From the sequence record SRR20825006_492: 20,000 nucleotides of DNA; one strand, 5' to 3'. Both the position numbers and the translations under genes were made by a program. Shown piece after piece: positions 1,932 to 17,331 of the stretch; the first letter of the stretch is position 1, and each line of letters begins with the position of its first letter. The notes beneath the pieces are model-generated. The model saw only the letters and a program-made list of their open reading frames with translations, was not told where the DNA came from and made no database searches.

Positions 1932-1964
1932 AAAAAAGAAGCCTCTTATCGGGAGGCTTCTTTT
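1932..1964. terminator. Bidirectional intrinsic terminator between the LamG gene and ftsZ
   Basis: AAAAGAAGCCTC (1934-1945) and GAGGCTTCTTTT (1953-1964) form a perfect 12-bp inverted repeat with a 7-nt loop. T-tracts follow on both strands, and it lies between convergent genes. Confidence 0.9.
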
Positions 1965-2105
1965 GTTGTTAGCAATCTATAGCCTATCTGTATAAAACAG
2001 ACAATGAGCTATAATCCAGTAAATTCAATGTTCATAATCTGGCAATTGGAGATTCCTATTCCAAGGCGTCTTACAACTACCAGGTATCCATCATAATTAA
2101 AAAGT
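1932..2105 (-). ncRNA. Candidate structured 3'-UTR / 3'-derived small RNA of the dcw operon
   Basis: Two hairpins (2039-2083 and 1978-2013) have mismatches that are G-U pairs only on the minus strand, and are followed by the terminator. The region contains segments complementary to the mraZ, ftsA and ftsZ leaders. No expression evidence. Confidence 0.4.
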
Positions 2106-3449
2106 TTAATCCATGATTTTGCGTAAGAACGCTGGTTGATCAGAATCATCTTTTTTAATGCGTTCTGTACGGCTTTGGAAAGGAGCGATGTTGTCTTTTG
2201 GTGCTTGTCTTTCTTCAGCTTTGTATTCCTCTTCGCGATAATCATTTGACTCATTGCGGTCAATAGCGTCATCATTTTTTGCAGATAAATCACGTCTTAA
2301 GTAAGAAGGAGTGTCTAATCTTTTTAGATTTCCTTCCCCTTTGTAATAATCATTTGATGTGCGATTAAAACGAGATGGAACTTCATCTACTTTAGCTGTC
2401 TGAGTGCGAGCGATATTTTCAGCAGCAGCTCTAAGAGGAGCGTTTGGTGCTACTTTTACTGTAGTACGATCTTCAGTAAGTTCAAACCCAGTAGCAATTA
2501 CTGTTACACGGATTTCGTCACCAAAGGACTCATCAAGAACTGTTCCTAGAATAATCTCTGCGTTGTCGCCAGCTTCTTGCTGTACAATACTTGTAGCAGT
2601 GGTTGTTTCGCGCATTCCTAAACCGGAACCTGCTGAGATGTTAACCAATACACTTCTTGCACCGCGAATACTTACGCCGTCGAGTAGTGGAGAGTTTATA
2701 GCAGCACGAGCAGCGATTTCTGCACGGTCAGGACCTTCAGCTGTAGCTGAGCCCATAATTGCAGCACCACCGTCTGTCATCGTTGTTCTTACATCTGCAA
2801 AATCGAGGTTTATTAAGCCTGGCATTAGGATGAGGTCGCTGATACCACGTGTGGCATTATAAAGCACCTCGTTTGCTAGTGCAAAAGCTTCAACTAAAGA
2901 AGTATTTTCGTCGGCAATGTCGAGCAAACGTTCGTTTGGAATAACAATTACCGTATCGCAGTTTTTTTTAAGCTCTGTAATTCCTTCTAGTGCATAACGC
3001 TTACGGATTTTACCCTCACACTCAAATGGTGTTGTGATGATACCAACGGTTAAAATGCCTTTACGTTTTGCCATGCCAGCAACAACGGGTGCACCGCCAG
3101 TTCCTGTTCCACCGCCCATTCCTGCAGTCACAAAAATCATATCTGCAGTTTCGAGTGATTCCTCGATCTCATGTCGGTTTTCTTCAATAGCTTCTCGGCC
3201 AACTTCTGGTCGAGCTCCGGCGCCTAATCCATTGGTTAGTGTAGTACCAACCTGAATTTTGATATTAGCCTTGCTATTTTTTAGTGCTTGGGCGTCTGTG
3301 TTCAGTGCGATATACTCTACACTGTCGAGACCCATATTTATCATATTATTGATAGCGTTTCCGCCACCGCCGCCTACGCCGATTACTTTTATCTTAGCGT
3401 TTTCTTGGCTCTGTTCGTCAAAAAAGAAACGAGTATTATGGTTAGCCAT
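2106..3449 (-). CDS. ftsZ: Cell division GTPase FtsZ
   Basis: IKVIGVGGGGGNA, tubulin signature GGGTGTG, T7 loop INLDFADV, C-terminal PAFLRK; last gene after ftsA. Confidence 0.99.
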   Translation of the reverse strand: MANHNTRFFFDEQSQENAKIKVIGVGGGGGNAINNMINMGLDSVEYIALNTDAQALKNSKANIKIQVGTTLTNGLGAGARPEVGREAIEENRHEIEESLETADMIFVTAGMGGGTGTGGAPVVAGMAKRKGILTVGIITTPFECEGKIRKRYALEGITELKKNCDTVIVIPNERLLDIADENTSLVEAFALANEVLYNATRGISDLILMPGLINLDFADVRTTMTDGGAAIMGSATAEGPDRAEIAARAAINSPLLDGVSIRGARSVLVNISAGSGLGMRETTTATSIVQQEAGDNAEIILGTVLDESFGDEIRVTVIATGFELTEDRTTVKVAPNAPLRAAAENIARTQTAKVDEVPSRFNRTSNDYYKGEGNLKRLDTPSYLRRDLSAKNDDAIDRNESNDYREEEYKAEERQAPKDNIAPFQSRTERIKKDDSDQPAFLRKIMD

Positions 3450-3454
3450 GATAA

Positions 3455-3459
3455 CTCCT
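3455..3459 (-). promoter_or_regulatory. Shine-Dalgarno sequence of ftsZ
   Basis: AGGAG lies 5 nt upstream of the ATG (ACAGGAGTTATCATG). Confidence 0.7.
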
Positions 3460-3509
3460 GTTTATATTATTTTACTGGATTATTATTTGTTGTATTTGAT
3501 TGCTGATTG

Positions 3510-4769
3510 CTAAAGTTCTTTGAACCAACTCTTCATGCGGTCGGCAATTTTGCCCATCACCTGTTCCATATTGTTTCCGCCTTTTTGAGAAGTTGATACA
3601 ATATTTTTTTTGCTGTCTGCGCCTGTTTTTAAAGCATGCACAACTAAGCCTACACCCGTGGCATAAACAGGGCTATTTACTTCCTCAACTAATCCACCGG
3701 TAAGACCAAGTGGAATTCCCACTTTTGCATCCATACCTAGGATTTCGTTAGCCAATGGACATATATTTTTAATAAGAGCGCCTCCACCAGTTAGTACCAC
3801 ACCAGCACTTAGTGAATCAGAATAACCACTGCGCTTAATTTCGATGCCAACTATCTCGAGGATTTCTTCCATTCTAGCTTGAATAATTTTAGCTAGAATG
3901 CTCTTTGTAATTTCTTTGGGTGGACGACCAGCAATTCCAGGAACGGTAATTACTTCGTCTTCTTGAATCATATCTGCAAAGCTTTCGCCATGTTTTCTTT
4001 TGAGTGATTCTGCTTGGTCGTCAAGTACGCTTAATCCTAAACGGATATCATCGGTTACTTTTTGCCCTGCAATTGCAATTACTGCAGTATGGCGAATCGT
4101 ATTATCTTGAAAAATAGCTACATCAGTAGTGCCTCCACCAATATCAACGAGAACAACGCCAGCTTCTTTTTCTTCTTCGTCTAGAACAGAATATGAAGAT
4201 GCTAGTGGCTCAAGAATGATATCTGCTACTTGGTAACCTGCTCGTTCAACACATCTATAAATATTTTTTGCCGCCGAAACTAAACCAGTGATAATGTGAA
4301 CCTCAGCTTCCATACGCATTCCGCTCATCCCAACAGGGTCACTGATGCCGTCTTGGCCATCAACCACAAATTCCTGAGGAATTACGTGTAGAATTTGTTG
4401 ATCGGTAGGCAGCATGATGCGTTGACAATCTTCCAACAGACGTTCTACATCATGTGCTGTAATTTCGTTATCGCGGTTATTAATAGTAATTACGCCTTTG
4501 CTACGCATGCTACGAATGTGGTCGCCAGCAATACCAACATTAACAGAATTAACCTGAATACCTGATGCAAGTTCAGCCTGAGCTATAGCATCTTTTATGG
4601 CATTTACCGTTTTATCGATGTTTACAACAACACCACGATTAAGACCTTCACTAGGAGATTTACCAACTCCTAGAATGTTAATTCGATTATGTTCAATTGA
4701 AGCTACGATTGCACAAATCTTAGTAGTTCCGATGTCCAGCCCTACCATTATGTTTTCTTGTTCTGACAT
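3510..4769 (-). CDS. ftsA: Cell division protein FtsA
   Basis: VGLDIGTTKI, VDIGGGTTD and VLTGGGA actin-fold motifs; C-terminal amphipathic helix (RMKSWFKEL); lies between ftsQ and ftsZ. Confidence 0.99.
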   Translation of the reverse strand: MSEQENIMVGLDIGTTKICAIVASIEHNRINILGVGKSPSEGLNRGVVVNIDKTVNAIKDAIAQAELASGIQVNSVNVGIAGDHIRSMRSKGVITINNRDNEITAHDVERLLEDCQRIMLPTDQQILHVIPQEFVVDGQDGISDPVGMSGMRMEAEVHIITGLVSAAKNIYRCVERAGYQVADIILEPLASSYSVLDEEEKEAGVVLVDIGGGTTDVAIFQDNTIRHTAVIAIAGQKVTDDIRLGLSVLDDQAESLKRKHGESFADMIQEDEVITVPGIAGRPPKEITKSILAKIIQARMEEILEIVGIEIKRSGYSDSLSAGVVLTGGGALIKNICPLANEILGMDAKVGIPLGLTGGLVEEVNSPVYATGVGLVVHALKTGADSKKNIVSTSQKGGNNMEQVMGKIADRMKSWFKEL

Positions 4770-4834
4770 GTCAGTACCGGTGTATATTATTGATTGCTAA
4801 ATTGGTTCTAGTATCAGGTGTTAAATATGTTTTG

Positions 4835-5587
4835 CTAACTTTCACGGGTAACCACCTGGTTTAAAAATCTTAAATCTACTTGTTGAATTTTGTTGATCCC
4901 TTTAACTCGAATCACTTCCGTATAAAAGGCTTTCCAATTCTCAAATTTTGTATCGAAATCGTTTTCTCCAAAAAGAAGTTTTACTCCATTTTCTTGGCTC
5001 AAAGCTACTACGCCTTCTTCTTGGCTATAAGCTACTTCACTAATAGTAGCCCAACCAAATTTGTTGGTTCTGGCCGAAACCAATAGGTCTCTAATTTGTC
5101 TAAAAGCAGCGCTTTTCAAGGTGTCTTTTGAGAAAGAAGTACTAAATCCATAAACCAATGGTAGATTTTGTGTTTTACCTTTTAAAATTGGAAGGCGAAC
5201 ACCTTCTGCATCTACATAAACTCGGTTTGCATCTTGTATTAATAGAGCTAATGGTTTTCTTTCTGTGATAGTGATGTTTAAATCACCATTTGGTTCGATA
5301 TAGGGAGTCGCTTTTTTCACATAATGAAGTGCTTCTAAACGAAGAACAATTGTTTCTAAATCGATACTATCTGGGTTTACTCCAAAAGGAACGGCTGCAG
5401 TTTTAGTAAGCTGTTCTGTGTCAGTGAAGTAATTCCCAGCAAATTTGACGCTATCAACTTTCACATTTCTATTCCAATAGATTGCCGCAACCATAGCAAG
5501 CCCAACAATCATTAAAATGGCTGTGATAATAGGAAGTTGACTTCGTCTCTTCGACTCAGTTTCAATATGTGGAGTGGCTTCACTCAC
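4835..5587 (-). CDS. ftsQ: Cell division protein FtsQ/DivIB
   Basis: Short cytoplasmic N-terminus, one TM helix, POTRA-like region, ITITERKP and VDLRF motifs; lies between murC and ftsA. The GTG start overlaps the murC end by 8 nt. Confidence 0.9.
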   Translation of the reverse strand: MSEATPHIETESKRRSQLPIITAILMIVGLAMVAAIYWNRNVKVDSVKFAGNYFTDTEQLTKTAAVPFGVNPDSIDLETIVLRLEALHYVKKATPYIEPNGDLNITITERKPLALLIQDANRVYVDAEGVRLPILKGKTQNLPLVYGFSTSFSKDTLKSAAFRQIRDLLVSARTNKFGWATISEVAYSQEEGVVALSQENGVKLLFGENDFDTKFENWKAFYTEVIRVKGINKIQQVDLRFLNQVVTRES

Positions 5588-7016
5588 TATCGATAGTAGG
5601 TTTAAAGGTTCCAGATTTCAAATCGTTTGCAAAAGCTTCGCCGAATTTATAAATGTCTCCAGCGCCCATCGTTATAACAATATCTCCAGCTCGGGTAATA
5701 GCCTTCAACTTCTCAGTTACTTCCTCTTTGTTCTCTACATAAATAACTTTTTTATGGCCGTACTGCTCTGCAGTGTCAGCTATAAGCTTGCCAGTTACAC
5801 CTTCAATTGGTTTCTCACGAGAAGGATAGACATCCGTAATTAGCAGAACCTCAGCATCAAAGAAAGAAAGACCGAATTCTTTGTATAAATCTTGAGTTCT
5901 TGAATACAAATGAGGTTGAAATACAGCTACTAATCTGCGATCTGGCCAGCCTTTGTGGGCAGCACTTAGAGTAGCTTGTACTTCGGTTGGATGATGTGCG
6001 TAATCATCAATCACCATAATACCTTGTTCTTCAGCTTTGCGCTGAAAACGGCGGAAAACTCCAGAAAAGCGTTCAAGACCAGCCTTTATTAACTTGAAGT
6101 CGATGCTTAATTCAATTCCTGTAGCTACAGCTGCGAGAGCATTGTTTACGTTATGATCACCTGGTGAGTTTAACGTAATCACACCTAGCTTTTTACCGTC
6201 GTTTGTTACGGTGAATGTGCTAGTAAATTGGTTCATTTGGATATCAACTGCACGAATTTGTGCTTGAGGTGTTAGCCCATAGGTGATAATTCTTTTCTCT
6301 AGCTGAGGTAAAATGCTTCTTACATTTGAATCATCTAAACAGACAATTACCGCACCATAGAAAGGTACCTTGTTAGCATAATCTATAAACGCATTTTTAA
6401 CGTCTTCTAAGTCGTCATAAATATCTAAATGATCTGCTTCTATATTTGTGATAATAGCAATAGAAGGAGTGAGTCGTAGGAAAGTACGGTCAAACTCATC
6501 GGCTTCAACAATAATCAAATCTCCTTTTCCAACAACAGCATTTGTCTTGTCAAAGCTATGAACTTTCCCGCCTACAATAATTGTCGGGTCATAGTGTCCA
6601 TCTTGAGCAACATGCCCAACCATAGTGGTAGTTGTTGTTTTGCCATGTGTACCTGCAACACCAATACCGAATTTCATTTTCATGAGTTCGGCTAGCATTT
6701 CAGCTCTTTTAATAGTTGGAATGCGTTTTTCGAGAGCCGCTTTTGTCTCTGGATTTTCAGAAGCTTTTACGGCACTGGTATAAACTACAACGTCTGCGCC
6801 CTCGATATTTTCTTCAGAGTGACCTAGATAAACGGTAGCGCCAAGCTTTTCTAAACGTTCTGTAGTTTCGCTACGTGCCCCGTCAGACCCAGATATTTTA
6901 TATCCACGTTGGATTAGGATCTCGGCCATGCCGCTCATTCCAATTCCTCCAATTCCCACCATATGAATGTGGCGAGTTCGTCCAAAAACGGGTTGTGTTT
7001 CTATTCTATGCTCCAT
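5580..7016 (-). CDS. murC: UDP-N-acetylmuramate--L-alanine ligase
   Basis: HMVGIGGIGMSG, AGTHGKTTTT, EADEFD, DDYAHHPTE and FQPHLYSRT motifs. Confidence 0.99.
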   Translation of the reverse strand: MEHRIETQPVFGRTRHIHMVGIGGIGMSGMAEILIQRGYKISGSDGARSETTERLEKLGATVYLGHSEENIEGADVVVYTSAVKASENPETKAALEKRIPTIKRAEMLAELMKMKFGIGVAGTHGKTTTTTMVGHVAQDGHYDPTIIVGGKVHSFDKTNAVVGKGDLIIVEADEFDRTFLRLTPSIAIITNIEADHLDIYDDLEDVKNAFIDYANKVPFYGAVIVCLDDSNVRSILPQLEKRIITYGLTPQAQIRAVDIQMNQFTSTFTVTNDGKKLGVITLNSPGDHNVNNALAAVATGIELSIDFKLIKAGLERFSGVFRRFQRKAEEQGIMVIDDYAHHPTEVQATLSAAHKGWPDRRLVAVFQPHLYSRTQDLYKEFGLSFFDAEVLLITDVYPSREKPIEGVTGKLIADTAEQYGHKKVIYVENKEEVTEKLKAITRAGDIVITMGAGDIYKFGEAFANDLKSGTFKPTIDSE

Positions 7017-8116
7017 CAGTTCAAACGGGATTTAGCGAGTTCTAAAATTTCGTTAGCAATTTGTTTAGCGGCATCTGGCTTAGCATGCTTTAATGCTGCT
7101 ATGTTCATTGCAGTTAGTTTTCTTTGGTCGTGTAAAAGGGTGTGTACAATATTAGATAAAGAGCGTGTTGCATGTGCATCAACTAGCAATACTGAAGCTC
7201 CAGCTTCAACCATAGCTTTGGCGTTTTGTGTTTGATGGTCTCCAGCCACATTAGGAGAAGGAATTAACACGCTTGGCTTTCCTGTAAGCATCAATTCGGA
7301 ACAAGAACTAGCGCCAGCACGACTAACTATCAAATCTGAAGCAGCATACGCTTCAGGCATATTTTCTATGTAAGGAAGTAACCGTACATTCGGATATGCG
7401 TTTAAATCTATCTCGGAAGAAAGAGTTTCGAAATATTGGCTACCACATTGCCAAATAACTTGTACGCTTGCAAGAGCGTTTAAATTCGCTTTTACTGCGT
7501 TGTTTATAGATCTCGCACCAAGACTACCACCAAGTACAAATAGCACAGGTTTAGTGCTATCGAAATCAAAAACTTTTAAACCCACTTCTTTTTCAACAGC
7601 GGTTAGTGAATTACGAGTAGGATTTCCTGTTTCAATAATTTCACTATTTGGGAAGAATGTTGATGCGGCTTTAAAAGCGATAAATATTTTTGAGGCGTAT
7701 TTTGCAAGCATTCTATTTGTAACGCCAGGGAAACTATTCTGCTCTTGAATTACAAGGCTGATATTCTTTTTAGCGGCAACCCAACCTATCGGACCAGCAA
7801 CATAGCCACCACAAGAAACTACAACTTGTGGTTTAAAAGAACTTAAAATGCTGAAACTCTGGAAAATGCTTGTTATTAACTTAATGGGGAACAAGAGGTT
7901 TTTAAGCGTGAATCTTCTTTGGAAACCACTTATCCAGACGTTTACAATCTCAAAACCAGCTTTTGGTACAGCGTTCCATTCCATATGATTCTTAGTTCCT
8001 ACAAAAAGAATCTCAGTGTCTGGATTTTGTTCTTTTAAAGCTGAAGCGATAGCAATAGCAGGATAAACATGCCCACCCGTTCCGCCAGCTGCAATTAATA
8101 CTCTTGGATTATGCAT
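7016..8116 (-). CDS. murG: Undecaprenyl-PP-MurNAc-pentapeptide GlcNAc transferase MurG
   Basis: AGGTGGHVYPA, EQNSFPG, TGNP, GGSLGA, SRAGAS and HQTQNA motifs. Start reassigned to ATG 8116 (MHNPRVL), which has an AGGAGG SD at 8127-8132 and overlaps the ftsW stop by 8 nt. Confidence 0.98.
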   Translation of the reverse strand: MHNPRVLIAAGGTGGHVYPAIAIASALKEQNPDTEILFVGTKNHMEWNAVPKAGFEIVNVWISGFQRRFTLKNLLFPIKLITSIFQSFSILSSFKPQVVVSCGGYVAGPIGWVAAKKNISLVIQEQNSFPGVTNRMLAKYASKIFIAFKAASTFFPNSEIIETGNPTRNSLTAVEKEVGLKVFDFDSTKPVLFVLGGSLGARSINNAVKANLNALASVQVIWQCGSQYFETLSSEIDLNAYPNVRLLPYIENMPEAYAASDLIVSRAGASSCSELMLTGKPSVLIPSPNVAGDHQTQNAKAMVEAGASVLLVDAHATRSLSNIVHTLLHDQRKLTAMNIAALKHAKPDAAKQIANEILELAKSRLN

Positions 8117-9299
8117 AGAACAACTGCCTCCTGTCTCGGTTATGTTTCGAGATATTGAGAAGAATGCCAACCATCAATCCAGTAAAAAGCATACTTGTTC
8201 CGCCATAGCTCACAAAAGGCATTGGCAAACCTGTTACGGGAAGTAAACCACTTGCCACACCAGCGTTTACATAGCCGAATAATACGATGGTGAGTGTGCA
8301 ACCTATCGCAAGTAAGGTTCCTAAATTATCTTCCGCTCGTTTAGATATATAAACTACGCCACGGAATAGAATGAGAGTGAAAAAGAAAATCAAAGTGAGT
8401 GCACCAACCATGCCGTACTCTTCTGCGATAATTGCAAAGATAAAATCGTTATAGGGAGCTGGGAGAAAATCTCGTTGCGTACTTTTTCCAATTCCGACGC
8501 CCATCAATTCGCCTTTGGCAATGGCAATCTGCGCTTGTTGGGCTTGATAACCTCTTCCTTGAAGAATCTCGGCACTCTCTATGTCTTTAATCTGACGAAC
8601 ATATTCATCTATTCTACTTTGGCGCACCTCAGATTGACCTAAAAGAATCGAACCGCCTAAAACGGCTAGAATAACAAGTGAACCAAGTTGTACAACACTT
8701 GCTCTACCAATAAACATAACAATTAAGCAAATGCTCATAAGGAGCCCTGCGCTACTAAAATCTTGAATTCCTATGAGACCACAAGTAACAATCACCCAAA
8801 ACATAATAGGGAGGAAGGTCTTTTTAAAATCTTTGATATAATCCTGTTTCTCAGCTAAGAGAACACAAACGTGTAAAATCAGAGCAACCGATGCAAAGGT
8901 AGACGGTTGGAATGTAAATCCACCTACATTCAGCCAACGTTTTGCACCAAACTGTGCAGTACCAAATACAAGTACAGAAATCAAGAGTATCCAGCTCAAA
9001 ACCATACCTAAACGACTGAATTTAGCTAGAGTATGGTAATTGATTTTTGAGACAAGAAGCATCACTACAAACGCGATACCAAGCTTGATGATGTGCCCAG
9101 TAACTAATTGGAATGCTGTTGTAGACTTAGACTCTGCGAAGTAAGCAATAGATGAATACACAGCAAGAATCCCGAAAATCATAAGCATAATAACCGACAT
9201 TAACAGAACGCGGTCGCTACCTTGCGTTTTTGTATCGATATCTTCAGGGCTTGTACCCAAGATGCTCTTAATGTTTCTATTTGGACTGGTGTGTAACAT
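8109..9299 (-). CDS. ftsW: SEDS family peptidoglycan polymerase FtsW
   Basis: About 10 TM helices; GAKRW, FQPS, LPAPYNDFIFAIIAEEYG and PVTGLPMPFVSYGGTS motifs; lies between murD and murG. Confidence 0.97.
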   Translation of the reverse strand: MLHTSPNRNIKSILGTSPEDIDTKTQGSDRVLLMSVIMLMIFGILAVYSSIAYFAESKSTTAFQLVTGHIIKLGIAFVVMLLVSKINYHTLAKFSRLGMVLSWILLISVLVFGTAQFGAKRWLNVGGFTFQPSTFASVALILHVCVLLAEKQDYIKDFKKTFLPIMFWVIVTCGLIGIQDFSSAGLLMSICLIVMFIGRASVVQLGSLVILAVLGGSILLGQSEVRQSRIDEYVRQIKDIESAEILQGRGYQAQQAQIAIAKGELMGVGIGKSTQRDFLPAPYNDFIFAIIAEEYGMVGALTLIFFFTLILFRGVVYISKRAEDNLGTLLAIGCTLTIVLFGYVNAGVASGLLPVTGLPMPFVSYGGTSMLFTGLMVGILLNISKHNRDRRQLFYA

Positions 9300-9310
9300 G
9301 TATTCTTTTT

Positions 9311-9335
9311 TCGAAGCTTTTTGTTAAAGCTTCAA
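9311..9335 (-). other. Intergenic stem-loop between murD and ftsW
   Basis: GAAGCTTT (9313-9320) / AAAGCTTC (9326-9333) is a perfect 8-bp stem with a 5-nt loop, extendable to 10 bp with a G-U pair on the minus strand. No downstream U-tract on either strand. Confidence 0.55.
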
Positions 9336-9340
9336 CTCGG

Positions 9341-11826: not shown

Positions 11827-13286
11827 TAAAGGCCCCCTTCATTTTTGAGGTGAAGTGCTTTTCTAGCAACCACACGATCGTCGAAAGGATGTCGAACTCC
11901 ATTAACCTCTTGGTAATCCTCATGACCTTTTCCAGCAATGAGAACAATGTCGTTATTCGAAGCTCTTACAATGGCCTCATTTATAGCTTCTTCTCTAAGA
12001 GTAAAACTAGTAACGTTCTTTGTCTCAGAAAAACCTTGAAGGATATCAGCAATTATTAAATCTGGATTTTCTCTTCTAGGGTTGTCGCTAGTAACTATAA
12101 TCTGATCAGCTAGACGTTCACAAACTTCAGCCATTTCAGGGCGTTTTGTTGTATCTCTATCTCCACCAGCACCAAATACTACATACAATTGTTGGTTCTG
12201 GTTTTTAAGTTCTTTTAGTGTTTTAAGTACATTCTCAAGAGCATCGGGAGTGTGAGCGTAATCCACAATTACTTTTGGTGCATCAAAATCTACATCAATG
12301 CTTTCCATTCTACCTGCAGCACCTATAGAGCTGTTTAAAGCGGATGTAATATCTTTTTCAGCTATTTCAAGTGCAGAAGCTATCAGAAAAGCTTGAGCTA
12401 CATTGTATGCGTTGAAAGTTCCAATAAGTGGCGTTCTTATTTCGGTTCCATTAATAGAAATCACCAAACCATTTTGTGAACTGGAGATGATAGACGCATT
12501 ACTATTATTAAACCCAAAAGGCATTGCTTTAGCTTTGGTATCGCATAGCATATGTCTCCCAAAAGCATCATCAGTATTTACTACGGCAGTTGTAGATTCA
12601 GAAAGTCCATCGAAAAGCAATTTTTTGGCATTAGCGTATTCTTCTAATGTTTCGTGATAATCTAGATGATCGTGACTCAAGTTTGTGAATGCAGCTACAG
12701 AGAAATCAATTCCTCCAACGCGCTGCTGGTGCAATGCATGTGAAGAGACTTCCATTACTAAGTACTCAGAGCCTGCATCAACCATAGCTCGCATATCAGC
12801 GGCTAGTTCAATTGGATCTGAAGTGGTGAGTTTACTTTCTAATACTTCATCATTAATAACTTTAGAAACGGTTCCTAAAAGAGATGCTTTTCTACCAACA
12901 GCGGTTAGTATTTGATATACAAGTGTAGCGGTAGTGGTTTTGCCATTCGTTCCTGTAATACCAATTACAGTTAATTCCTTAGCAGGATTTCCTTCAAATT
13001 GTTGAGATAGTGGGCCAATGAGTGATCTAGTGTTTTCAACTTCTATCACACAAACTCCAGGCGCATCTGTGTAGAAAGACTCTTCACAAATTAAAACTTT
13101 TGCTCCTCTATGAATAGCATCTTCCAAAAAGAGATGTCCGTCTACTTCAGTGCCTCTAATAGCAATAAAAACTGCTCCATCGGTTACTTGTCGAGAATTT
13201 TGGACAAGCGGACCAATTTCACCCTCCGGTTTTGTACGGGAGACATCAAGTGGATTAACCAGCTCTATGAGTTCTTTAATAGTCAA
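11826..13286 (-). CDS. murE: UDP-MurNAc-L-Ala-D-Glu--meso-diaminopimelate ligase
   Basis: GITGTNGKTT, MEVSSH, DHLDYH, VDYAHTPD and AGKGHE motifs. The DNPR motif indicates meso-DAP specificity. The TTG start directly abuts the ftsI stop. Confidence 0.98.
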   Translation of the reverse strand: MTIKELIELVNPLDVSRTKPEGEIGPLVQNSRQVTDGAVFIAIRGTEVDGHLFLEDAIHRGAKVLICEESFYTDAPGVCVIEVENTRSLIGPLSQQFEGNPAKELTVIGITGTNGKTTTATLVYQILTAVGRKASLLGTVSKVINDEVLESKLTTSDPIELAADMRAMVDAGSEYLVMEVSSHALHQQRVGGIDFSVAAFTNLSHDHLDYHETLEEYANAKKLLFDGLSESTTAVVNTDDAFGRHMLCDTKAKAMPFGFNNSNASIISSSQNGLVISINGTEIRTPLIGTFNAYNVAQAFLIASALEIAEKDITSALNSSIGAAGRMESIDVDFDAPKVIVDYAHTPDALENVLKTLKELKNQNQQLYVVFGAGGDRDTTKRPEMAEVCERLADQIIVTSDNPRRENPDLIIADILQGFSETKNVTSFTLREEAINEAIVRASNNDIVLIAGKGHEDYQEVNGVRHPFDDRVVARKALHLKNEGGL

Positions 13287-15443
13287 TTATCTTTTATCCG
13301 ATTGAGATACAAATTCTAGTGATTTCGCTTTACCACGTAAAGTTATAGTGCTGTTTAAGCGCATTTTTTCTCCCTTGAGAGGAAATTGAGCATAAACGGT
13401 TCCAGAGCCAATCATTTTGGTATTAAAGCCAAGTTCACCAAGTAAATTATTGGCAGCTCGCATATTCATTCCACGTAACTCAGGAACTATTACAATCCCT
13501 TTATTTGTGCTTGCACTATCAGCGGGAACATAGGTTTCAGAAAGGGTGAGAATAATTTTATGTCCAGCCTCAATGGGGTTTCCAGCTTCAATACTTTGAC
13601 TAACTATAGAGCCAGTTTTTCCTTTAAATTTAAATGGGATATCGAGTTCGCCCAATAGGTATTCGGATTGATTTTTTTCTAAACCGACTAAACTCGGTAC
13701 ACGAACAACCTCTTCAGCATCTTGTTCCGCTTGAGTCAAATTGCGTTGAATATCATTATCTAAACCGGCAATTCTCTTAGTAGTTTCTCTAAAAATTGGC
13801 GCGGCAACTACGCCACCGTATCCACTTGTCTTTGGCTCGTTAAGCATGATTAAGCAAACATATTTGGGGTCATCAACGGGGAAAAACCCTATAAATGAAG
13901 CTAAATATCTATTGGTATAGCGGCCGTCAACAACTTTCTTAGCGGTTCCTGTTTTACCCGCAATTCTGAGTCCGTTAATCTGAGCAGCGTCTCCAGTTCC
14001 AGAATCACTAACTACACTTTCAAAAACAGGTAGTAATTTCTTTAACGTACTTTCTTTGGCAACTCTTCTAATTTCTGTAGGCTCGTTTCTAAGAATTACT
14101 TCTCCATTTTCATTCTCAATATAATCTACAACGTAAGGGCGCATCATAATGCCCTTATTCGCAAAAGCTGAATAGGCTTGAGCTACTTGAAGCGGTGTTG
14201 CAAGAACCTCATAACCATGCGACATCCACGGTAAACTAACTAAACTCCAGTCGTAGGGCTTTTTTAAAGAACCAGCTACTTCTCCAGATAAATCAATCTG
14301 TGTTTCGGAACCAAACCCAAGATTTCTAACATATTGATAGAATACTTTAGGCTTTAAACGCATCGCAATTTCAGCAGTTGCCACATTTGAAGACTTCTGT
14401 ATAACCTGCTGGAAGTTGATGTTTCCGAGTGGATCATGATCTCGTAATGTGAGGCCATGAATTTGAACCTCACCATTAGCTGGCGTTTCAAAAATCTCAT
14501 TAAAATCTACTACATTTTGCTCAACGGCAGCAATAGCAGTTATTAACTTGAACGTTGAGCCAGGCTCAACCATATCAGAAATAGCAAAATTTCTACGATT
14601 TATATCTTCATCATTTCCTGGGAAATTAGGATCATAAGTTGGGTAATTAGCCATCGCTTTAATAGCGCCTGTCCTAGGGTCAATAATTATTCCTGTTCCA
14701 TACAGTGAGGATGTTTTCTCAACTCCATTTTTTAATTCATCTTCTAGGATGGCTTGGATATAAGAATCGATAGTAGTGTGAAGCGAATTTCCATTTTCTG
14801 GAAGTTTTTTGGGAGCGCCCACATAGGCTGAAATTCTATTTCTAGGATCGCGTCTCACTTGTTGTAGGCCATCAGCACCTTTTAGCTCGTCGTTGTAATA
14901 AGCTTCAAGCCCGATTCTACCATCAGTGTTATGGTTTACAAAGCCTAAGGTGTGAGCTGCTAAACTGCCAAAAGTATATTTTCTACGGAAACTCTCTTCA
15001 ATTATTACACCCTTAATATTCAAATTTTTGATAACATCTCGAGCAACAGGCGAAAGGTTTTTTGCTAGGATGATATATCTAGAGCGAGAAGGCGCACTTT
15101 TAATTTTGTTGTTAAAATCTGATAGTGGCTGCTTTGTTACAGTAGCAAGAGTTTTAGTAAGCTCGTTAATCTGAGCTTTAGAAAGCCCGTCAATTTTTGG
15201 ATCGAGCGCAATTTGGTAGTTGGCAGCGTTTGTAGCTAACAAAGTGCCGTTCACATCATAAATATTACCGCGCTGAGCAGGTATTGGAATAGAATCTATC
15301 GCTTGTTGACTCCAAAGCGTACGCAGCTCATCACCATTCAGGTAATTTATCCTGAAAAGCTGAAACGCAAGTACACAAGGAATGAGCAAAAGTAGCCCAA
15401 ACACAAGAAACATACGGCTCAATATGGCTGTTCTATCCGTCAT
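13287..15443 (-). CDS. ftsI: Class B penicillin-binding protein (FtsI/PBP3-type) with two C-terminal PASTA domains
   Basis: N-terminal TM, RGNIYD, catalytic STFK / SSN / KTGT motifs. Two PASTA-like repeats start at VPSLVGL and VPELRGM. Confidence 0.95.
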   Translation of the reverse strand: MTDRTAILSRMFLVFGLLLLIPCVLAFQLFRINYLNGDELRTLWSQQAIDSIPIPAQRGNIYDVNGTLLATNAANYQIALDPKIDGLSKAQINELTKTLATVTKQPLSDFNNKIKSAPSRSRYIILAKNLSPVARDVIKNLNIKGVIIEESFRRKYTFGSLAAHTLGFVNHNTDGRIGLEAYYNDELKGADGLQQVRRDPRNRISAYVGAPKKLPENGNSLHTTIDSYIQAILEDELKNGVEKTSSLYGTGIIIDPRTGAIKAMANYPTYDPNFPGNDEDINRRNFAISDMVEPGSTFKLITAIAAVEQNVVDFNEIFETPANGEVQIHGLTLRDHDPLGNINFQQVIQKSSNVATAEIAMRLKPKVFYQYVRNLGFGSETQIDLSGEVAGSLKKPYDWSLVSLPWMSHGYEVLATPLQVAQAYSAFANKGIMMRPYVVDYIENENGEVILRNEPTEIRRVAKESTLKKLLPVFESVVSDSGTGDAAQINGLRIAGKTGTAKKVVDGRYTNRYLASFIGFFPVDDPKYVCLIMLNEPKTSGYGGVVAAPIFRETTKRIAGLDNDIQRNLTQAEQDAEEVVRVPSLVGLEKNQSEYLLGELDIPFKFKGKTGSIVSQSIEAGNPIEAGHKIILTLSETYVPADSASTNKGIVIVPELRGMNMRAANNLLGELGFNTKMIGSGTVYAQFPLKGEKMRLNSTITLRGKAKSLEFVSQSDKR

Positions 15444-15859
15444 TAATCATTTATAGTTATTACTTTATCTGCTGGTCCACCATTTACAAAGCCTGCTTGT
15501 TCAGCATTTCTGTAAATATCTGCTGGCCCAACCATTTTGTCGTACTGTAATTTTAAAGCATCATGTTTACTTCGCGCTTTGTTGAACTCTACTTCCAGAA
15601 TTTGAACTTCTTCTAAGAGGCTCTGTGTAGCAAAAACGTGTGTCAAATACATGAATCCGAACACGCCAGCTATTACAGATGCCAAAATTACTTTCCAAGG
15701 TTTGATGTCTTGGATTCTGCTTTTTACAGAACTTGATTTTACTTTAGTAGCGGTTCTTTTGCTTGTATGGGATGGAGTTGGGGACTCTACATTTGGCTTA
15801 TGAACTCTACGAAGGTTAGGTCGAGTTTCACGCTTACGAAGTGGTGATTGAACGATCAT
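15443..15859 (-). CDS. ftsL: Probable FtsL-like cell division protein
   Basis: Lies between rsmH and ftsI. Basic N-terminus, single TM (VILASVIAGVFGFMYL), then a heptad coiled coil. GGAGG SD at 15866-15870. Called from synteny and topology rather than strong homology. Confidence 0.7.
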   Translation of the reverse strand: MIVQSPLRKRETRPNLRRVHKPNVESPTPSHTSKRTATKVKSSSVKSRIQDIKPWKVILASVIAGVFGFMYLTHVFATQSLLEEVQILEVEFNKARSKHDALKLQYDKMVGPADIYRNAEQAGFVNGGPADKVITIND

Positions 15860-16782
15860 TTTTTACCTCCATCTACTTTTTCAGCAATTCGAAGTTTAGC
15901 GCTTCTAGCTGCTGCATTACGAGCTACTTCTTCGTCACTTGGAGTGATGATTTGACGATTTATAGCTCTAATTGGGGAAATTACGTTTCCGTAAAAATCT
16001 TTTTCAATCTCGCCTTCTAAATTTCCAGCTTTGAAAAATTTCTTAACAATTCGATCTTCTAGTGAATGGTACGACATCACTACAATACGTCCTTCAGGTT
16101 TTAGCAATTCGAGTGATTGCTCTAAAACACTTTTTAAAACATCTAATTCACGATTCACTTCAATTCTAATTCCTTGAAATACTCTTGCCAAGGACTTAAT
16201 TGCAAATTTGGGACTTACAACACCTTTAATAACTTTGGCAAGTTGACCAGTGGTGTCAATAGGGCGAGCTTCGATAATAGCTTTGGCAATTTCCTTGCTA
16301 CCACGTTCTTCACCATAATGGAAAATAACATCACGTAATGCTTCGTATTCGTAGTTATTCACTACTTGATAAGCAGAAACACCGGATAAATTACCCATAC
16401 GCATATCCAAAGGACCATCTTCTTGGAAACTAAACCCTCGTTCAGCTTCTTTAATTTGATGTGTGGATACACCGAGATCTAATAAAATTCCAGAAACCTG
16501 ACCTATCGTTTGGGGAGGTAGGAGAGTAGTCAAGTATCCAAAGTTTCCTTTTACAGGAATAAAACGGGTATCATCACCAATGCGTGCTTTGGCTGCAGCA
16601 TGAGCTTCGTCATCTTGATCCACTCCGTAAAGTGTGGCCTCAGGTCCTATTAAAGAAAGAATTTCCTTTGCATGTCCGCCTCCGCCTAAAGTTCCGTCTA
16701 CATAAATGCCATTCTCATCAGTGATGAGGGCATCCATACATTCGTGTAGCATAACAGGGAAATGCTCATGATAAATTTTCAT
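15856..16782 (-). CDS. rsmH: 16S rRNA m4C1402 methyltransferase RsmH (MraW)
   Basis: HFPVMLHE, DGTLGGGGH, DLGVS, PLDMRM, SYHSLEDR and RSAKLR motifs. AGGAG SD at 16789-16793. Confidence 0.99.
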   Translation of the reverse strand: MKIYHEHFPVMLHECMDALITDENGIYVDGTLGGGGHAKEILSLIGPEATLYGVDQDDEAHAAAKARIGDDTRFIPVKGNFGYLTTLLPPQTIGQVSGILLDLGVSTHQIKEAERGFSFQEDGPLDMRMGNLSGVSAYQVVNNYEYEALRDVIFHYGEERGSKEIAKAIIEARPIDTTGQLAKVIKGVVSPKFAIKSLARVFQGIRIEVNRELDVLKSVLEQSLELLKPEGRIVVMSYHSLEDRIVKKFFKAGNLEGEIEKDFYGNVISPIRAINRQIITPSDEEVARNAAARSAKLRIAEKVDGGKK

Positions 16783-16783
16783 C

Positions 16784-17254
16784 TTAAGCTCCTTCGCCTT
16801 GATTATTATTACCTAGAACCTGCTCAAAAATTTCTTCAATCGATTCTGGACTCATATTTTCATCTGCTTCATTAAGCTTTTCGGGAGACCATATTTCGAT
16901 ATATTCTCCCATACCAATAAAAACAACTTTTGAATCTATGCCTGAGTAGGTGAGATGATCTGTGGGGATGGCAATTCGATTCTGTTTGTCGAGGGAGGCA
17001 TCTTCTGCAAAACGTAGGAAGTAACGCTTAGCTAAACGGCCGTTTTTACTGAAAGAATTAATGTGAGAAAGCTTGTCTTCAACAAGTTCCCACTCATTTT
17101 CTGGGTATAGATACAGGCATTCTTCGGTTTGACCACGTACTACTGTGAAGCGGTCTTGTGCGTCGGGACTGAGATTTTTACGCAGTTTGGCAGGGAAGGC
17201 TACACGACCTTTTTCGTCTATACTATGCTCGTATTGTCCTTTAAAGCTAGGCAC
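16784..17254 (-). CDS. mraZ: dcw cluster transcriptional repressor MraZ
   Basis: FKGQYEHSIDEKGR and LDKQNRI (two DxxxR SpoVT/AbrB repeats), IEIW. Start reassigned to GTG 17254 (MPSFKGQY, 156 aa), because the ORF-track start at 17326 falls inside the operator boxes. Confidence 0.97.
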   Translation of the reverse strand: MPSFKGQYEHSIDEKGRVAFPAKLRKNLSPDAQDRFTVVRGQTEECLYLYPENEWELVEDKLSHINSFSKNGRLAKRYFLRFAEDASLDKQNRIAIPTDHLTYSGIDSKVVFIGMGEYIEIWSPEKLNEADENMSPESIEEIFEQVLGNNNQGEGA

Positions 17255-17306
17255 GGCTTTACCAAATGGTTTTAGATTGCTAAAATTTTTGAATCTGGAA
17301 GAAGTC

Positions 17307-17331
17307 CCCACTATCTCCCACTTCACCCCAC
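17307..17331 (-). promoter_or_regulatory. MraZ operator: three GTGGG direct repeats with a 10-bp period
   Basis: The minus strand reads GTGGG-GTGAA-GTGGG-AGATA-GTGGG (17331-17327, 17321-17317, 17311-17307). This matches the known MraZ (G)TGG(G) repeats with ~10-bp spacing and overlaps the predicted transcription start. Confidence 0.88.

What the first reader, a model, noticed from the sequence alone, without database searches (positions are those of the whole stretch)
1969..17283. One motif (TTAGCAATC) in the mraZ, ftsA and ftsZ leaders, with its antisense copy at the operon's 3' end: candidate 3'-UTR sRNA feedback system
Seen: mRNA-sense TTTAGCAATC occurs in the mraZ leader (17275-17284), the ftsA leader (4792-4801) and across the ftsA stop/ftsZ leader (3505-3514, with a tandem AGCAATC at 3498-3504). 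A partial GTTAGCAA spans the ftsQ stop (4832-4839). The antisense copy UAGAUUGCUAAC lies between the last hairpin and the terminator (1968-1979), where a single-stranded sRNA seed would sit. The best match is to mraZ, 15 kb away: 11 exact bp (17273-17283 vs 1969-1979), extendable to about 19 of 22 positions with one G-U pair and one bulge. Paired segments end 18 (mraZ), 22 (ftsA) and 21 (ftsZ, helix B) nt before the start codons, at the edge of the ribosome footprint. Inference: the end of the dcw transcript, or an sRNA processed from it, regulates the repressor gene at the start and the ftsA/ftsZ pair. Known RNA control of dcw genes (DicF on E. coli ftsZ; UpsM/StsR at Rhodobacter mraZ) has a different architecture. 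Alternatives: an orientation-independent DNA-binding site, or a boxA-like antitermination signal (it resembles CTTTAACAAT of E. coli rrn boxA).
Basis: partly seen in the sequence, partly recalled or inferred. Interest (0 to 1): 0.85.

Follow-up and report, generated by a model that had tools for sequence, protein, structure and literature searches.

The report
ftsZ mRNA tail pairs with division-gene leaders
In this Balneola bacterium the untranslated tail of the cell-division gene ftsZ carries two exposed stretches that are exact complements of short boxes in front of ftsZ, ftsA and mraZ, and this match has been kept through evolution, so it is most likely an RNA feedback loop on cell division that has not been described before.

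Summary
TTAGCAATC occurs 4 times in the window against 0.23 expected. Three copies are mRNA-sense, in the mraZ, ftsA and ftsZ leaders. One is antisense, just 5' of the ftsZ terminator.

It is not a common word. In the nearest genome, 4 of 59 copies lie in the dcw cluster and 49 of the other 55 lie inside ORFs.

It is conserved:
- Antisense GATTGCT followed by a terminator is present in 79 of 79 Balneolaceae ftsZ trailers that had sequence.
- The sense box is in 23 of 23 mraZ leaders and 22 of 22 ftsA leaders of the genus.
- Strand bias is nearly absolute: leaders 78 sense to 3 antisense, trailers 90 antisense to 0 sense.

A second helix is 13 bp here: leader AUAAUCCAGUAAA with trailer UUUACUGGAUUAU. 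Its one variable pair changes only as C-G, U-G or U-A, never C-A.

Other lineages of the class keep ftsZ leader/trailer complementarity with different sequences.

I conclude that the structured ftsZ 3'UTR base-pairs with dcw leaders, probably as autoregulation. This resembles OppZ or icaR, but there is no Hfq and the ribosome-binding site is not covered in this organism. No transcript or functional data exist.

The parts
1932..2105 (-). ftsZ 3'UTR (trailer), about 174 nt from the stop codon to the end of the terminator U-run. It is a structured RNA conserved across Balneolaceae.
   Evidence: Alignment A1 of 63 trailers. The consensus fold has 21 pairs, 14 of them with compensatory changes. There is no terminator between the ftsZ stop and the seed.
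1968..1979 (-). Seed A' UAGAUUGCUAAC, single-stranded between hairpin 2 and the terminator. It is antisense to the leader boxes.
   Evidence: Unpaired in the MFE and consensus folds. CTATAGATTGCTAAC is invariant in the 63 aligned trailers. GATTGCT plus a terminator is in 79 of 79 loci.
2011..2023 (-). Box B' UUUACUGGAUUAU, complementary to ftsZ leader box B.
   Evidence: Unpaired for its first 10 nt in the MFE fold. Duplex energy -16.3 kcal/mol. Pair table.
2032..2096 (-). Hairpin 1 of the trailer. Its apex in relatives is CCAUGGGAAUGG. Role unknown.
   Evidence: MFE fold. The apical 4 pairs covary: A-U 35 against U-A 18 at one pair.
1978..2013 (-). Hairpin 2 (UAUAGC...GCUAUA) with a variable, covarying interior.
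   Evidence: The seventh pair is U-A in 24, C-G in 20 and U-G in 18 sequences.
1934..1964 (-). Intrinsic terminator hairpin followed by a U-run. It is the only terminator after ftsZ.
   Evidence: MFE fold. Covarying stem. The simple consensus scan did not list it.
3471..3483 (-). ftsZ leader box B AUAAUCCAGUAAA, at -34 to -22 from the ATG.
   Evidence: ATCCAGTAAA is kept in most Balneolaceae.
3498..3513 (-). ftsZ leader box A: UUAGCAAUC (3513-3505, containing the ftsA stop) plus a tandem AGCAAUC (3504-3498).
   Evidence: Duplex energy -13.5 kcal/mol. AGCAATC is in 63 of 90 unique Balneolales ftsZ leaders.
4792..4800 (-). ftsA leader box UUAGCAAUC, 22 nt before the ATG.
   Evidence: Present in 22 of 22 genomes of the genus. 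Of 71 unique Balneolaceae leaders, 56 hold AGCAATC; in 53 of those the only copy starts at -25 to -29. Duplex energy -12.0 kcal/mol.
17273..17283 (-). mraZ leader box UUAGCAAUCUA, 18 nt before the GTG start. It is an 11-bp exact complement of 1969-1979.
   Evidence: TTAGCAATC is in 23 of 23 genomes of the genus, and the next base is T in 21 of 23. AGCAATC is in 14 of 20 genomes of other Balneolaceae genera. Duplex energy -16.0 kcal/mol.
17307..17361 (-). mraZ promoter (TTGACA 17361-17356, TACATT 17337-17332) and three GTGGG repeats at 10-nt spacing (17331-17327, 17321-17317, 17311-17307). These are context for the leader, not part of the pairing.
   Evidence: Read. Conserved in relatives. Calling them MraZ operator repeats rests on recalled E. 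coli work.
2106..3449 (-). ftsZ (447 aa).
   Evidence: Pfam Tubulin and FtsZ_C.
3510..4769 (-). ftsA (419 aa).
   Evidence: Pfam FtsA and SHS2_FTSA.
16784..17254 (-). mraZ (156 aa, GTG start).
   Evidence: Pfam MraZ. The start is conserved in relatives.

Best explanation
The ftsZ 3'UTR is a conserved, folded RNA: hairpin 1, box B', hairpin 2, a single-stranded seed GAUUGCUAAC, then the terminator. I propose that it base-pairs with the 5' leaders of genes in its own dcw cluster.

- With the ftsZ leader it forms two colinear antiparallel helices. Helix A is AGCAAUC with GAUUGCU. Helix B is AUAAUCCAGUAAA with UUUACUGGAUUAU.
- With the mraZ and ftsA leaders the seed alone pairs (11 and 9 bp), ending 18-22 nt before the start codon.

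Because the element is made once per completed ftsZ transcript, it would report operon output back to the leaders, which is autoregulation.

Shown here: the complementarity, its strand specificity, its conservation, pairing-preserving substitutions, the exposed state of both boxes in predicted folds, and the replacement of the pairing sequences by other complementary pairs in sister lineages.

Inferred, not shown:
- that the RNAs pair in cells;
- that it acts in trans on mraZ and ftsA, either as the mRNA tail or as a fragment released by the RNase E/G homologue;
- that the effect is negative (less translation initiation, or cleavage of the duplex). I favour a negative effect because in the sister order Rhodothermales the ftsZ trailer is complementary to the ftsZ Shine-Dalgarno region itself.
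For: 1. Enrichment. There are 4 copies against 0.23 expected in the window. In G001, 4 of 59 genomic copies are in the dcw cluster, and 49 of the other 55 are inside ORFs.

2. Conservation.
- Trailer GATTGCT plus a terminator is in 79 of 79 Balneolaceae loci with sequence.
- The exact 15-mer CTATAGATTGCTAAC is in 28 of 61 sampled family genomes. It occurs once in 27 and twice in 1. The reversed control has 0 copies. Where ftsZ coordinates were listed, the copy lies about 100-150 nt past ftsZ on the same strand.
- The mraZ box is in 23 of 23 genomes of the genus and 14 of 20 genomes of other genera.
- The ftsA box is in 22 of 22 genomes of the genus and 56 of 71 unique family leaders, at a nearly fixed distance from the ATG.

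3. Strand specificity in 90 unique Balneolales sets. Leaders have 78 AGCAATC against 3 GATTGCT. Trailers have 90 GATTGCT against 0 AGCAATC.

4. Helix B. Among 78 unique ftsZ loci the variable pair is C-G in 55, U-G in 9 and U-A in 2; 12 lack the box; C-A never occurs. On an ftsZ tree the two U-A cases are separate and U-G arises in at least 5 places. In the -45..-20 zone the mean longest complementary run is 9.88 against 5.79 for shuffled trailers.

5. Changes of whole modules. L138 and L139 have two AGCAATC in the leader, two GATTGCT in the trailer, and no box B. Lineage-specific flanks also match: G041 has 12 nt TAGCAATCAAAA and G037 has 10 nt AGCAATCTAA. G029 and G035 lack both boxes but have their own 10-nt pairs. 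Family f6 pairs across the GTG start.

6. Class-wide test. For 36 lineage representatives the longest own leader/trailer complementary runs sum to 333. Shuffled trailers give 249.4, sd 6.5, maximum 268 in 300 shuffles. Seventeen of 36 are individually at P<=0.05. In 34 Rhodothermales the Shine-Dalgarno window gives 226 against 195.8, sd 4.9, maximum 209. Different Shine-Dalgarno flanks are each matched in the genome's own trailer.

7. Structure. The consensus fold of 63 trailers has 21 pairs, 14 with compensatory changes, and leaves the seed unpaired. The MFE fold leaves both boxes unpaired. Duplex energies are -12 to -16.3 kcal/mol, and the leaders are unstructured at the boxes.

8. The sequence downstream of the terminator differs between species, so the element travels with ftsZ and not with the neighbouring gene.
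Against: - There is no transcript evidence. The four runs laid were contigs, and the three runs listed as RNA or probable RNA did not cover the trailer.
- The helix A core is invariant, so it shows no internal covariation. A 7-mer match alone is close to chance.
- Box A in the ftsZ leader is degraded in 25 of the 88 sets that have a trailer seed, several with 2-4 mismatches. The mraZ box is absent in 6 of 20 genomes of other Balneolaceae genera. The contacts are therefore not all obligatory.
- Helix B covariation rests on one position and two fully compensated species. The tree is FastTree on ftsZ, midpoint-rooted, and branch supports were not examined.
- The genomes are related, so counts and shuffle tests overstate independence.
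- In Rhodothermales only 6 of the 20 representatives pass individually at P<=0.05.
- Outside the class the pooled test on 20 genomes is not significant: 133 against 123.3, sd 8.1.
- In Balneolales the Shine-Dalgarno window is not complementary to the trailer (5.58 against 5.27), so the mode of action here is unclear.
- The simple scan did not call the terminator.
Confidence: 0.7

Rival explanations
1. Cis-only end-to-end pairing. The trailer pairs only with the leader of the same ftsZ mRNA molecule, as in icaR or hbs, to set its stability or translation. No RNA acts in trans, and the mraZ and ftsA boxes serve another purpose.
For: The two colinear helices A and B exist only for the ftsZ leader, and B is the strongest. 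In Rhodothermales the trailer matches the ftsZ Shine-Dalgarno region, as in icaR. No promoter-like site was found just upstream of the trailer. There is no Hfq in 0 of 3 Balneola genomes.
Against: The seed complement is kept in the mraZ leader (23 of 23 in the genus, 14 of 20 in other genera) and the ftsA leader (56 of 71), at fixed distances from the start codons. The trailer seed stays invariant even where ftsZ box A has decayed, in 25 of 88 sets. This implies that other partners hold it in place.
Confidence: 0.17
2. DNA-level site. AGCAATC is the binding site of a transcription factor or nucleoid protein that marks the promoters and the end of the dcw cluster, and it works in either orientation.
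For: The core is invariant and short, as protein sites are. There are tandem copies in some leaders.
Against: - Orientation is nearly absolute: leaders 78 to 3, trailers 0 to 90.
- The antisense copy always sits between a hairpin and the terminator.
- The second box pair tolerates U-G and U-A but never C-A.
- Sister lineages replace both partners by other complementary sequences.
- The word is not enriched in other intergenic DNA of G001.
Confidence: 0.05
3. The sense box is a signal read by a protein or the transcription machinery, such as a boxA-like antitermination site or an RNA-binding-protein site. The antisense copy in the trailer is unrelated, or is a decoy that masks it.
For: Leader sequence beside box A (ATCTACA) is also conserved without a visible partner in the trailer.
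Against: The 420 nt upstream of both 16S genes of Balneola G005 hold no AGCAATC. This reading gives no reason for the exact antisense copy, for helix B, or for the lineage-specific complementary pairs.
Confidence: 0.04
4. Chance plus slow divergence. The matches are coincidental words frozen by relatedness.
For: The genomes are related. 7-mers match by chance. Many Rhodothermales representatives are individually not significant.
Against: In the genus, MraZ falls to 71% and FtsZ to 67% identity, and the sequences flanking the boxes differ between species. The 13-bp and 11-bp matches were reached by 0 of 200 shuffles. The sequence downstream of the terminator is not conserved.
Confidence: 0.03

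Closest known systems
OppZ and CarZ of Vibrio cholerae: 3'UTR-derived sRNAs that autoregulate their own operon (PMC7398697, seen as search listing and start of abstract; passages of the review PMC9438474)
   Same: The regulator sits at the 3' end of an operon mRNA and shares its terminator. Its seed is complementary to an intergenic leader inside the same operon. The logic is feedback from completed transcripts.
   Different: - OppZ depends on Hfq, and no Hfq was found in 3 Balneola genomes.
- Here there are three leaders plus a second helix, and the pairing lies 18-22 nt upstream of the start codon, not on the ribosome-binding site.
- Release by RNase E and Rho-dependent termination are untested.
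- The operon is the cell-division cluster, and conservation reaches class level.
icaR mRNA of Staphylococcus aureus: 5'UTR-3'UTR pairing that controls translation (PMC3868564, listing and start of abstract; details recalled)
   Same: The 3'UTR of an mRNA is complementary to its own 5'UTR. In Rhodothermales the ftsZ trailer matches the ftsZ Shine-Dalgarno region in the same way.
   Different: In the window organism the Shine-Dalgarno region is not matched. The boxes lie upstream of it. Other genes' leaders (mraZ, ftsA) carry the same target box.
hbs mRNA of Bacillus subtilis: a 5'/3'-UTR interaction that controls ribonuclease access (PMC5737220, listing and start of abstract)
   Same: Long-range pairing between the mRNA ends, proposed to affect stability.
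   Different: Different organism and nucleases. There is no multi-target seed, and no comparative evidence of this breadth is known to me.
DicF, the prophage sRNA that represses ftsZ in E. coli (PMC5069750 listing; review passages)
   Same: An antisense RNA aimed at the ftsZ leader.
   Different: DicF is prophage-encoded, needs Hfq and pairs at the ftsZ ribosome-binding site. No Rfam family, DicF included, matches the window at E<=1.
StsR/UpsM at the Rhodobacter dcw 5' end (PMC8266604) and the Klebsiella sRNA regulator of cell division (PMC10907235); both seen as listing and start of abstract only
   Same: RNA control of dcw or ftsZ expression.
   Different: Those regulators are encoded elsewhere or at the 5' end and are stress-induced. 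Here the regulator is the constitutive 3' end of the ftsZ message itself.

Membership tests
Autoregulatory 3'UTR-derived sRNA (OppZ/CarZ type) | The regulator sequence lies at the 3' end of the operon mRNA and shares its intrinsic terminator. | tested here: met
   The seed lies 3-4 nt before the only terminator after ftsZ. There is no terminator between the stop codon and the seed. The arrangement is the same in 79 of 79 related loci.
Autoregulatory 3'UTR-derived sRNA (OppZ/CarZ type) | The seed is complementary to a leader or intergenic region of its own operon. | tested here: met
   There are 9-13 bp exact matches to the ftsZ, ftsA and mraZ leaders. They are conserved and strand-specific.
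Autoregulatory 3'UTR-derived sRNA (OppZ/CarZ type) | A stable small RNA is released by RNase E. | not testable with these tools
   An RNase E/G homologue is present in 3 of 3 Balneola genomes. No read-level RNA data were available.
Autoregulatory 3'UTR-derived sRNA (OppZ/CarZ type) | Dependence on Hfq. | tested here: not met
   Pfam Hfq (PF17209) was found in 0 of 3 Balneola genomes that are 99% complete. The control genomes rang.
Autoregulatory 3'UTR-derived sRNA (OppZ/CarZ type) | Represses translation of the target and so causes premature Rho-dependent termination. | not testable with these tools
   This needs experiments.
Cis 5'UTR-3'UTR pairing (icaR type) | The 3'UTR is complementary to the Shine-Dalgarno region of the same mRNA. 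| tested here: not met
   In Balneolales the Shine-Dalgarno window against the genome's own trailer gives 5.58, against 5.27 shuffled. The feature is met in many Rhodothermales: 226 against 195.8, sd 4.9.
Cis 5'UTR-3'UTR pairing (icaR type) | The 3'UTR is complementary to the 5'UTR of the same mRNA anywhere. | tested here: met
   Helices A and B with the ftsZ leader.
DicF (Rfam RF00039) | Match to the family covariance model. | tested here: not met
   No Rfam family matches the window at E<=1.
boxA / Nus antitermination signal | The same box is present in the rRNA operon leaders of the organism. | tested here: not met
   There is no AGCAATC in the 420 nt upstream of either 16S gene of Balneola G005.
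MraZ operator | Direct GTGGG-type repeats at 10-nt spacing at the mraZ promoter. | tested here: met
   Three GTGGG repeats lie at 17331-17307 and are conserved. They are a separate element upstream of the TTAGCAATC box, so the motif is not the MraZ site.

The most novel reading that the evidence does not exclude
An ancient RNA counter for cell division. Throughout the class Rhodothermia, and possibly in other Shine-Dalgarno-using Bacteroidota lineages, the 3' end of the ftsZ message pairs with the 5' leader of ftsZ. In Balneolales it also pairs with the leaders of ftsA and of the operon repressor gene mraZ. Each finished transcript would therefore throttle new synthesis and hold FtsZ, FtsA and MraZ dosage constant without any protein regulator or Hfq. 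The pairing sequences have been swapped several times while the interaction was kept.
Probability: 0.45. Interest if true: 0.9.

Novelty: new variant of a known kind. Interest (0 to 1): 0.8.

Why it matters
How bacteria hold FtsZ at the right level is an old open question. The known RNA regulators of ftsZ are accessory, either prophage-encoded or stress-induced.

Here the regulator would be built into the ftsZ message itself. It would also touch the first gene of the operon (the repressor MraZ) and the FtsA/FtsZ pair, whose ratio matters for division. It is conserved over a whole family in one form and over a class in other forms, in a phylum where RNA regulators are little studied and Hfq is absent.

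It gives directly testable predictions. Seed and compensatory mutations can be made, and a 100-170 nt 3' fragment can be looked for, in cultivable relatives such as Gracilimonas tropica DSM 19535 or Balneola sp. EhC07, both named.

It would also extend the short list of bacterial mRNAs whose two ends talk to each other.

Tried and rejected
- RNA evidence. One run search and one laying of four runs gave only contigs. The runs listed as RNA or probable RNA covered parts of the ftsZ coding region and not the trailer. This says nothing either way.
- Whole-length duplex prediction of leaders against the full trailer gave long unrealistic duplexes, not better than shuffles for ftsA (95 of 200) and mraZ (22 of 200). 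I replaced it with short-segment duplexes.
- The sigma-70 and terminator consensus scan found no promoter-like site on the minus strand between 2106 and 2300. It also missed the evident terminator, so it is a weak test.
- Rfam found no match in the window at E<=1.
- A third copy of the box B complement at 8177-8186 lies inside the ftsW coding sequence. It is not conserved in 17 relatives, so it is chance.
- Two other intergenic TTAGCAATC sites in G001 precede a DUF445 gene and an alpha-amylase gene. They have no link to division, and conservation was not checked.
- Anti-Shine-Dalgarno pairing in Balneolales was not found.
- The boxA idea: no AGCAATC in the rrn leaders.
- Phylum-wide extension. 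Twenty genomes outside the class are not significant when pooled, although three are individually striking.
- Earlier notes of this scan held nothing on this genome, and the DicF notes do not bear on it.
- Literature searches found no paper on an ftsZ 3'UTR element or on Balneola RNA regulation. 'ftsZ 3 UTR' returned 0 papers.
- Not done: a covariance model of the trailer, CopraRNA or IntaRNA target prediction, and R-scape. The count of structure pairs on a leader-to-trailer alignment was skipped because a 60-sequence by 1.9-kb alignment would be too large to print; pairs were tabulated by script instead.

Full report
**What the window is.**
The minus strand carries a complete dcw cluster, called from ORFs and Pfam:
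- mraZ (16784-17254, GTG start);
- ORFs that by order and length look like rsmH, ftsL, ftsI, murE, mraY, murD, ftsW, murG and murC (named by recall, not scanned against Pfam);
- ftsQ (4835-5587), ftsA (3510-4769) and ftsZ (2106-3449).

A convergent LamG/T9SS-tail protein ends at 1901. Record titles of the closest loci name Balneola sp. (Balneolaceae). No whole genome is held for the window. The nearest held genome is G001, which shares 50% of the sampled 31-mers.

TTAGCAATC occurs at 1969 (+), 3505 (-), 4792 (-) and 17275 (-). That is 4 matches against 0.23 expected, and 0 of 200 shuffles reached 4.

In G001 the word occurs 59 times in 3.7 Mb, against 31 for the reversed control. Four copies lie in the dcw cluster with the same spacing as in the window. 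Of the other 55, 49 lie inside ORFs of at least 100 aa in either orientation, and 6 are intergenic. The word is therefore not a common intergenic one. The bare 7-mer core is only weakly enriched in the window: 8 against 3.56 expected, with 7 of 200 shuffles reaching 8.

**Conservation.**
I fetched mraZ and ftsZ loci from 41 relatives, 80 named Balneolaceae ftsZ loci and further regions by coordinate.

- *mraZ leader.* The exact 9-mer is in 23 of 23 genomes of the genus, and the next base is T (a 10-nt complement) in 21 of 23. Flanks vary, and MraZ identity falls to 71%. In 20 genomes of other Balneolaceae genera AGCAATC is present in 14. It always lies downstream of three GTGGG repeats.
- *ftsA leader.* The 9-mer is in 22 of 22 genomes of the genus. 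AGCAATC is in 56 of 71 unique family leaders. In 53 of those the only copy starts at -25 to -29 from the ATG. Fifty-two hold the full 9-mer.
- *ftsZ leader.* The 9-mer is in only the 5 closest genomes. AGCAATC is in 22 of 22 genomes of the genus and in 63 of 90 unique Balneolales sets.
- *Trailer.* GATTGCT followed by a terminator hairpin is in 79 of 79 loci that had trailer sequence (L061 is cut by a contig end). It is also present in other Balneolales families: G037/G031, G041, G032/G026, and G033/G027/G039.
- *The 15-mer.* CTATAGATTGCTAAC occurs in 28 of 61 sampled family genomes (11 of 30 genera). It occurs once in 27 and twice in G060, and the reversed control has 0 copies. Where ftsZ coordinates were listed, the copy lies about 100-150 nt beyond ftsZ on the same strand.

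The sequence after the terminator is unrelated between species. The element therefore belongs to ftsZ and not to the neighbouring gene.

**The trailer is a folded RNA.**
An alignment of 63 trailers (A1) shows four parts in order:
- a first hairpin with the apex CCAUGGGAAUGG;
- the near-invariant UUUACUGGAU;
- a second hairpin, UAUAGC...GCUAUA, whose interior varies from about 8 to 90 nt;
- the invariant GAUUGCUAAC, followed by the terminator.

The consensus fold has 21 pairs, 14 of them with compensatory changes, and leaves the seed unpaired. The MFE fold of the window's trailer leaves both UUUACUGGAU and GAUUGCUAAC unpaired. No Rfam family matches the window.

**A second helix.**
The ftsZ leader carries AUAAUCCAGUAAA (3483-3471), the exact complement of the trailer's UUUACUGGAUUAU (2023-2011). 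In the leader, box A lies 5' of box B. In the trailer, B' lies 5' of A'. This is the order expected for two antiparallel helices between the same two RNAs.

Predicted duplex energies:

| Contact | Energy (kcal/mol) |
|---|---|
| ftsZ leader, helix B | -16.3 |
| ftsZ leader, helix A | -13.5 |
| mraZ leader | -16.0 |
| ftsA leader | -12.0 |

The leaders are predicted to be unstructured at the boxes.

In the -45..-20 zone of 90 unique Balneolales leaders, the mean longest complementary run with the genome's own trailer is 9.88, against 5.79 for shuffled trailers. In the Shine-Dalgarno window it is 5.58 against 5.27, so there is no anti-Shine-Dalgarno contact here.

**Evidence that the constraint is on RNA pairing.**
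1. *Strand bias.* Leaders have 78 AGCAATC against 3 GATTGCT. Trailers have 90 GATTGCT against 0 AGCAATC.
2. *The variable pair of helix B.* Among 78 unique ftsZ loci it is C-G in 55, U-G in 9 and U-A in 2; 12 lack the box; C-A never occurs. On an ftsZ tree the two U-A species (L067, L074) are not sisters, and U-G appears in at least five places. The tree is FastTree, midpoint-rooted, and branch supports were not inspected.
3. *Module swaps.* L138 and L139 lack box B but have two AGCAATC in the leader and two GATTGCT in the trailer.
4. *Flanks that differ between lineages still match within a genome.* G041 has TAGCAATCAAAA (12 nt), G037 has AGCAATCTAA (10 nt) and L131 has TAGCAATCTA (10 nt).
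5. *Replacement of both partners.* G029 and G035 are the only Balneolales sets without either box. They carry their own 10-nt pairs, ACAGGAAACC and AGCGGAAACA. Family f6 pairs across the GTG start, with ATAAACAGGT and AACAGGTGA.

**Beyond the order.**
In 34 Rhodothermales genomes the AGCAATC/GATTGCT pair is absent, but the ftsZ leader and trailer are again complementary.
- Leader hairpin loops (UGCUCA) match trailer hairpin loops (UGAGCA).
- A helix lies just upstream of the Shine-Dalgarno sequence. In family f9 it is GCUGAACCACAACC, 14-15 nt in 5 of 6 genomes and 11 nt in the sixth. In f12 it is (U)ACAGCC(AA), UCAGCCAA or ACAGCCC, each matched in the genome's own trailer. In f22/f23 it is ACAACCCUGGCG, 10-12 nt.
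- The Shine-Dalgarno region with its lineage-specific flank (CUUCGGAG, UUUCGGAGG, CGACUAGAG, CUGGAGGG, CCGGAGG) is matched in the genome's own trailer.

The Shine-Dalgarno-window sum is 226, against 195.8 (sd 4.9, maximum 209 of 300) for shuffled trailers.

Over 36 lineage representatives of the class, the sum of the longest own runs is 333, against 249.4 (sd 6.5, maximum 268). Seventeen of 36 are individually at P<=0.05, and 19 are not.

Outside the class, 20 genomes are not significant when pooled: 133 against 123.3, sd 8.1. Three stand out: G213 with 11 nt, G240 with 12 nt (ACCACAACAAGG) and G234 with 9 nt across the Shine-Dalgarno sequence. All these genomes are related, so the tests overstate independence.

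**Mechanism.**
The simplest reading is that the ftsZ 3'UTR pairs with the dcw leaders. The mraZ and ftsA leaders keep the seed complement at a fixed distance from their start codons. The seed stays invariant even where ftsZ box A has decayed, in 25 of 88 sets. For these reasons I favour action in trans on at least those two leaders, in addition to the two-helix contact with ftsZ.

The active form could be the mRNA tail or a released fragment; this is open. An RNase E/G homologue is present in 3 of 3 Balneola genomes, and Hfq in 0 of 3.

I guess the sign is negative, by analogy with the Shine-Dalgarno occlusion seen in Rhodothermales and with OppZ. This is inference. At mraZ a negative effect could either lower the repressor or terminate the operon early, and I cannot tell which.

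**Alternatives.**
- A DNA-binding site does not fit the strand bias, the position next to the terminator, or the U-G tolerance.
- A boxA-like signal does not fit. The 420 nt upstream of both 16S genes of Balneola G005 hold no AGCAATC.
- Chance does not fit the conservation amid diverged flanks.
- Cis-only pairing of the ftsZ mRNA ends remains a serious rival.

**What is known.**
- 3'UTR-derived sRNAs that autoregulate their own operon are known: OppZ and CarZ (PMC7398697 listing; review passages).
- 5'-3' UTR pairing is known for icaR (PMC3868564) and hbs (PMC5737220); I saw only listings and the starts of the abstracts.
- Known RNA regulators of ftsZ or dcw are DicF, StsR/UpsM and a Klebsiella sRNA. 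They are encoded elsewhere (listing).

Searches for an ftsZ 3'UTR element or for Balneola RNA regulation found nothing. The review's passages mentioning ftsZ that I was shown (12 of 24 matched places) concern DicF only. I did not see supplements.

**Verdict.**
It is a new variant of known kinds of RNA control, and it still needs transcript mapping and mutational tests.

Noticed in passing
L194-L207, L234-L253 (ftsZ loci of 34 Rhodothermales genomes): The ftsZ trailers are complementary to their own ftsZ leaders, with sequences different from Balneola. Three contacts appear: loop-loop UGCUCA with UGAGCA; a helix just upstream of the Shine-Dalgarno sequence (up to 15 nt in family f9); and the Shine-Dalgarno region with its lineage-specific flank.
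   Followed up: partly
L262 (G213), L263 (G240), L254 (G234): Three Bacteroidota genomes outside the class also show long ftsZ leader/trailer complements: CACCACAACAA (11 nt), ACCACAACAAGG (12 nt) and AAAGGAGAC (9 nt). The ACCACAAC word recurs in Rhodothermales f9 and f24. The pooled test on 20 genomes was not significant.
   Followed up: partly
window 17307-17361 (-): A TTGACA/TACATT promoter is followed by three GTGGG repeats at 10-nt spacing, overlapping the likely transcription start. They are conserved in nearly all relatives examined and look like the MraZ operator (name recalled).
   Followed up: partly
L293:1001-1022 (G060, contig 9): One Balneolaceae genome has a second, exact 22-nt copy of CTATAGATTGCTAACAATAAAA away from ftsZ. 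It sits beside a bidirectional terminator-like hairpin. It lacks hairpin 2 and has no terminator of its own. It may be a remnant or a stand-alone seed.
   Followed up: partly
window 2040-2075 (-) and alignment A1 columns 50-75: The apex of trailer hairpin 1 (CCAUGGGAAUGGUAUCUC in most relatives) is conserved in sequence as well as in pairing. No partner was found in the leaders, so it may be a protein or nuclease site.
   Followed up: no
L065-L128, ftsZ leaders: Directly 3' of box A most Balneolaceae leaders keep ATCTACA. Many trailers hold the same-sense CCTACAGAC inside hairpin 2. These are not complementary to each other, and I have no explanation.
   Followed up: no
window 8177-8186 (+): There is a third exact ATCCAGTAAA. 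On the mRNA strand it reads UUUACUGGAU, inside the ftsW coding sequence near the murG start. It is not conserved in 17 relatives, so it is probably chance.
   Followed up: yes
window 3450-3462, 4770-4790, 17255-17272 (-): ftsZ has a strong, conserved AGGAG Shine-Dalgarno sequence 7-8 nt before the ATG. The ftsA and mraZ leaders show no evident Shine-Dalgarno sequence. The 16S 3' end of a Balneola genome does carry CCUCC (L291).
   Followed up: no
L291:3098, L292:3097 (G005 rrn operons): AGCAATC occurs about 67 nt past the 16S 3' end in both rRNA operons, in the spacer and possibly inside a tRNA gene.
   Followed up: no
L177:1001 and L154 (G001): Two other intergenic sense copies of TTAGCAATC lie 66 and 60 nt upstream of a DUF445 gene and an alpha-amylase-family gene. 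They are possible extra targets, but conservation was not checked.
   Followed up: partly
window 3-1901 (+): The convergent neighbour encodes a LamG-domain protein with a T9SS C-terminal sorting domain. It ends 30 nt before the shared terminator, which is bidirectional in shape.
   Followed up: no
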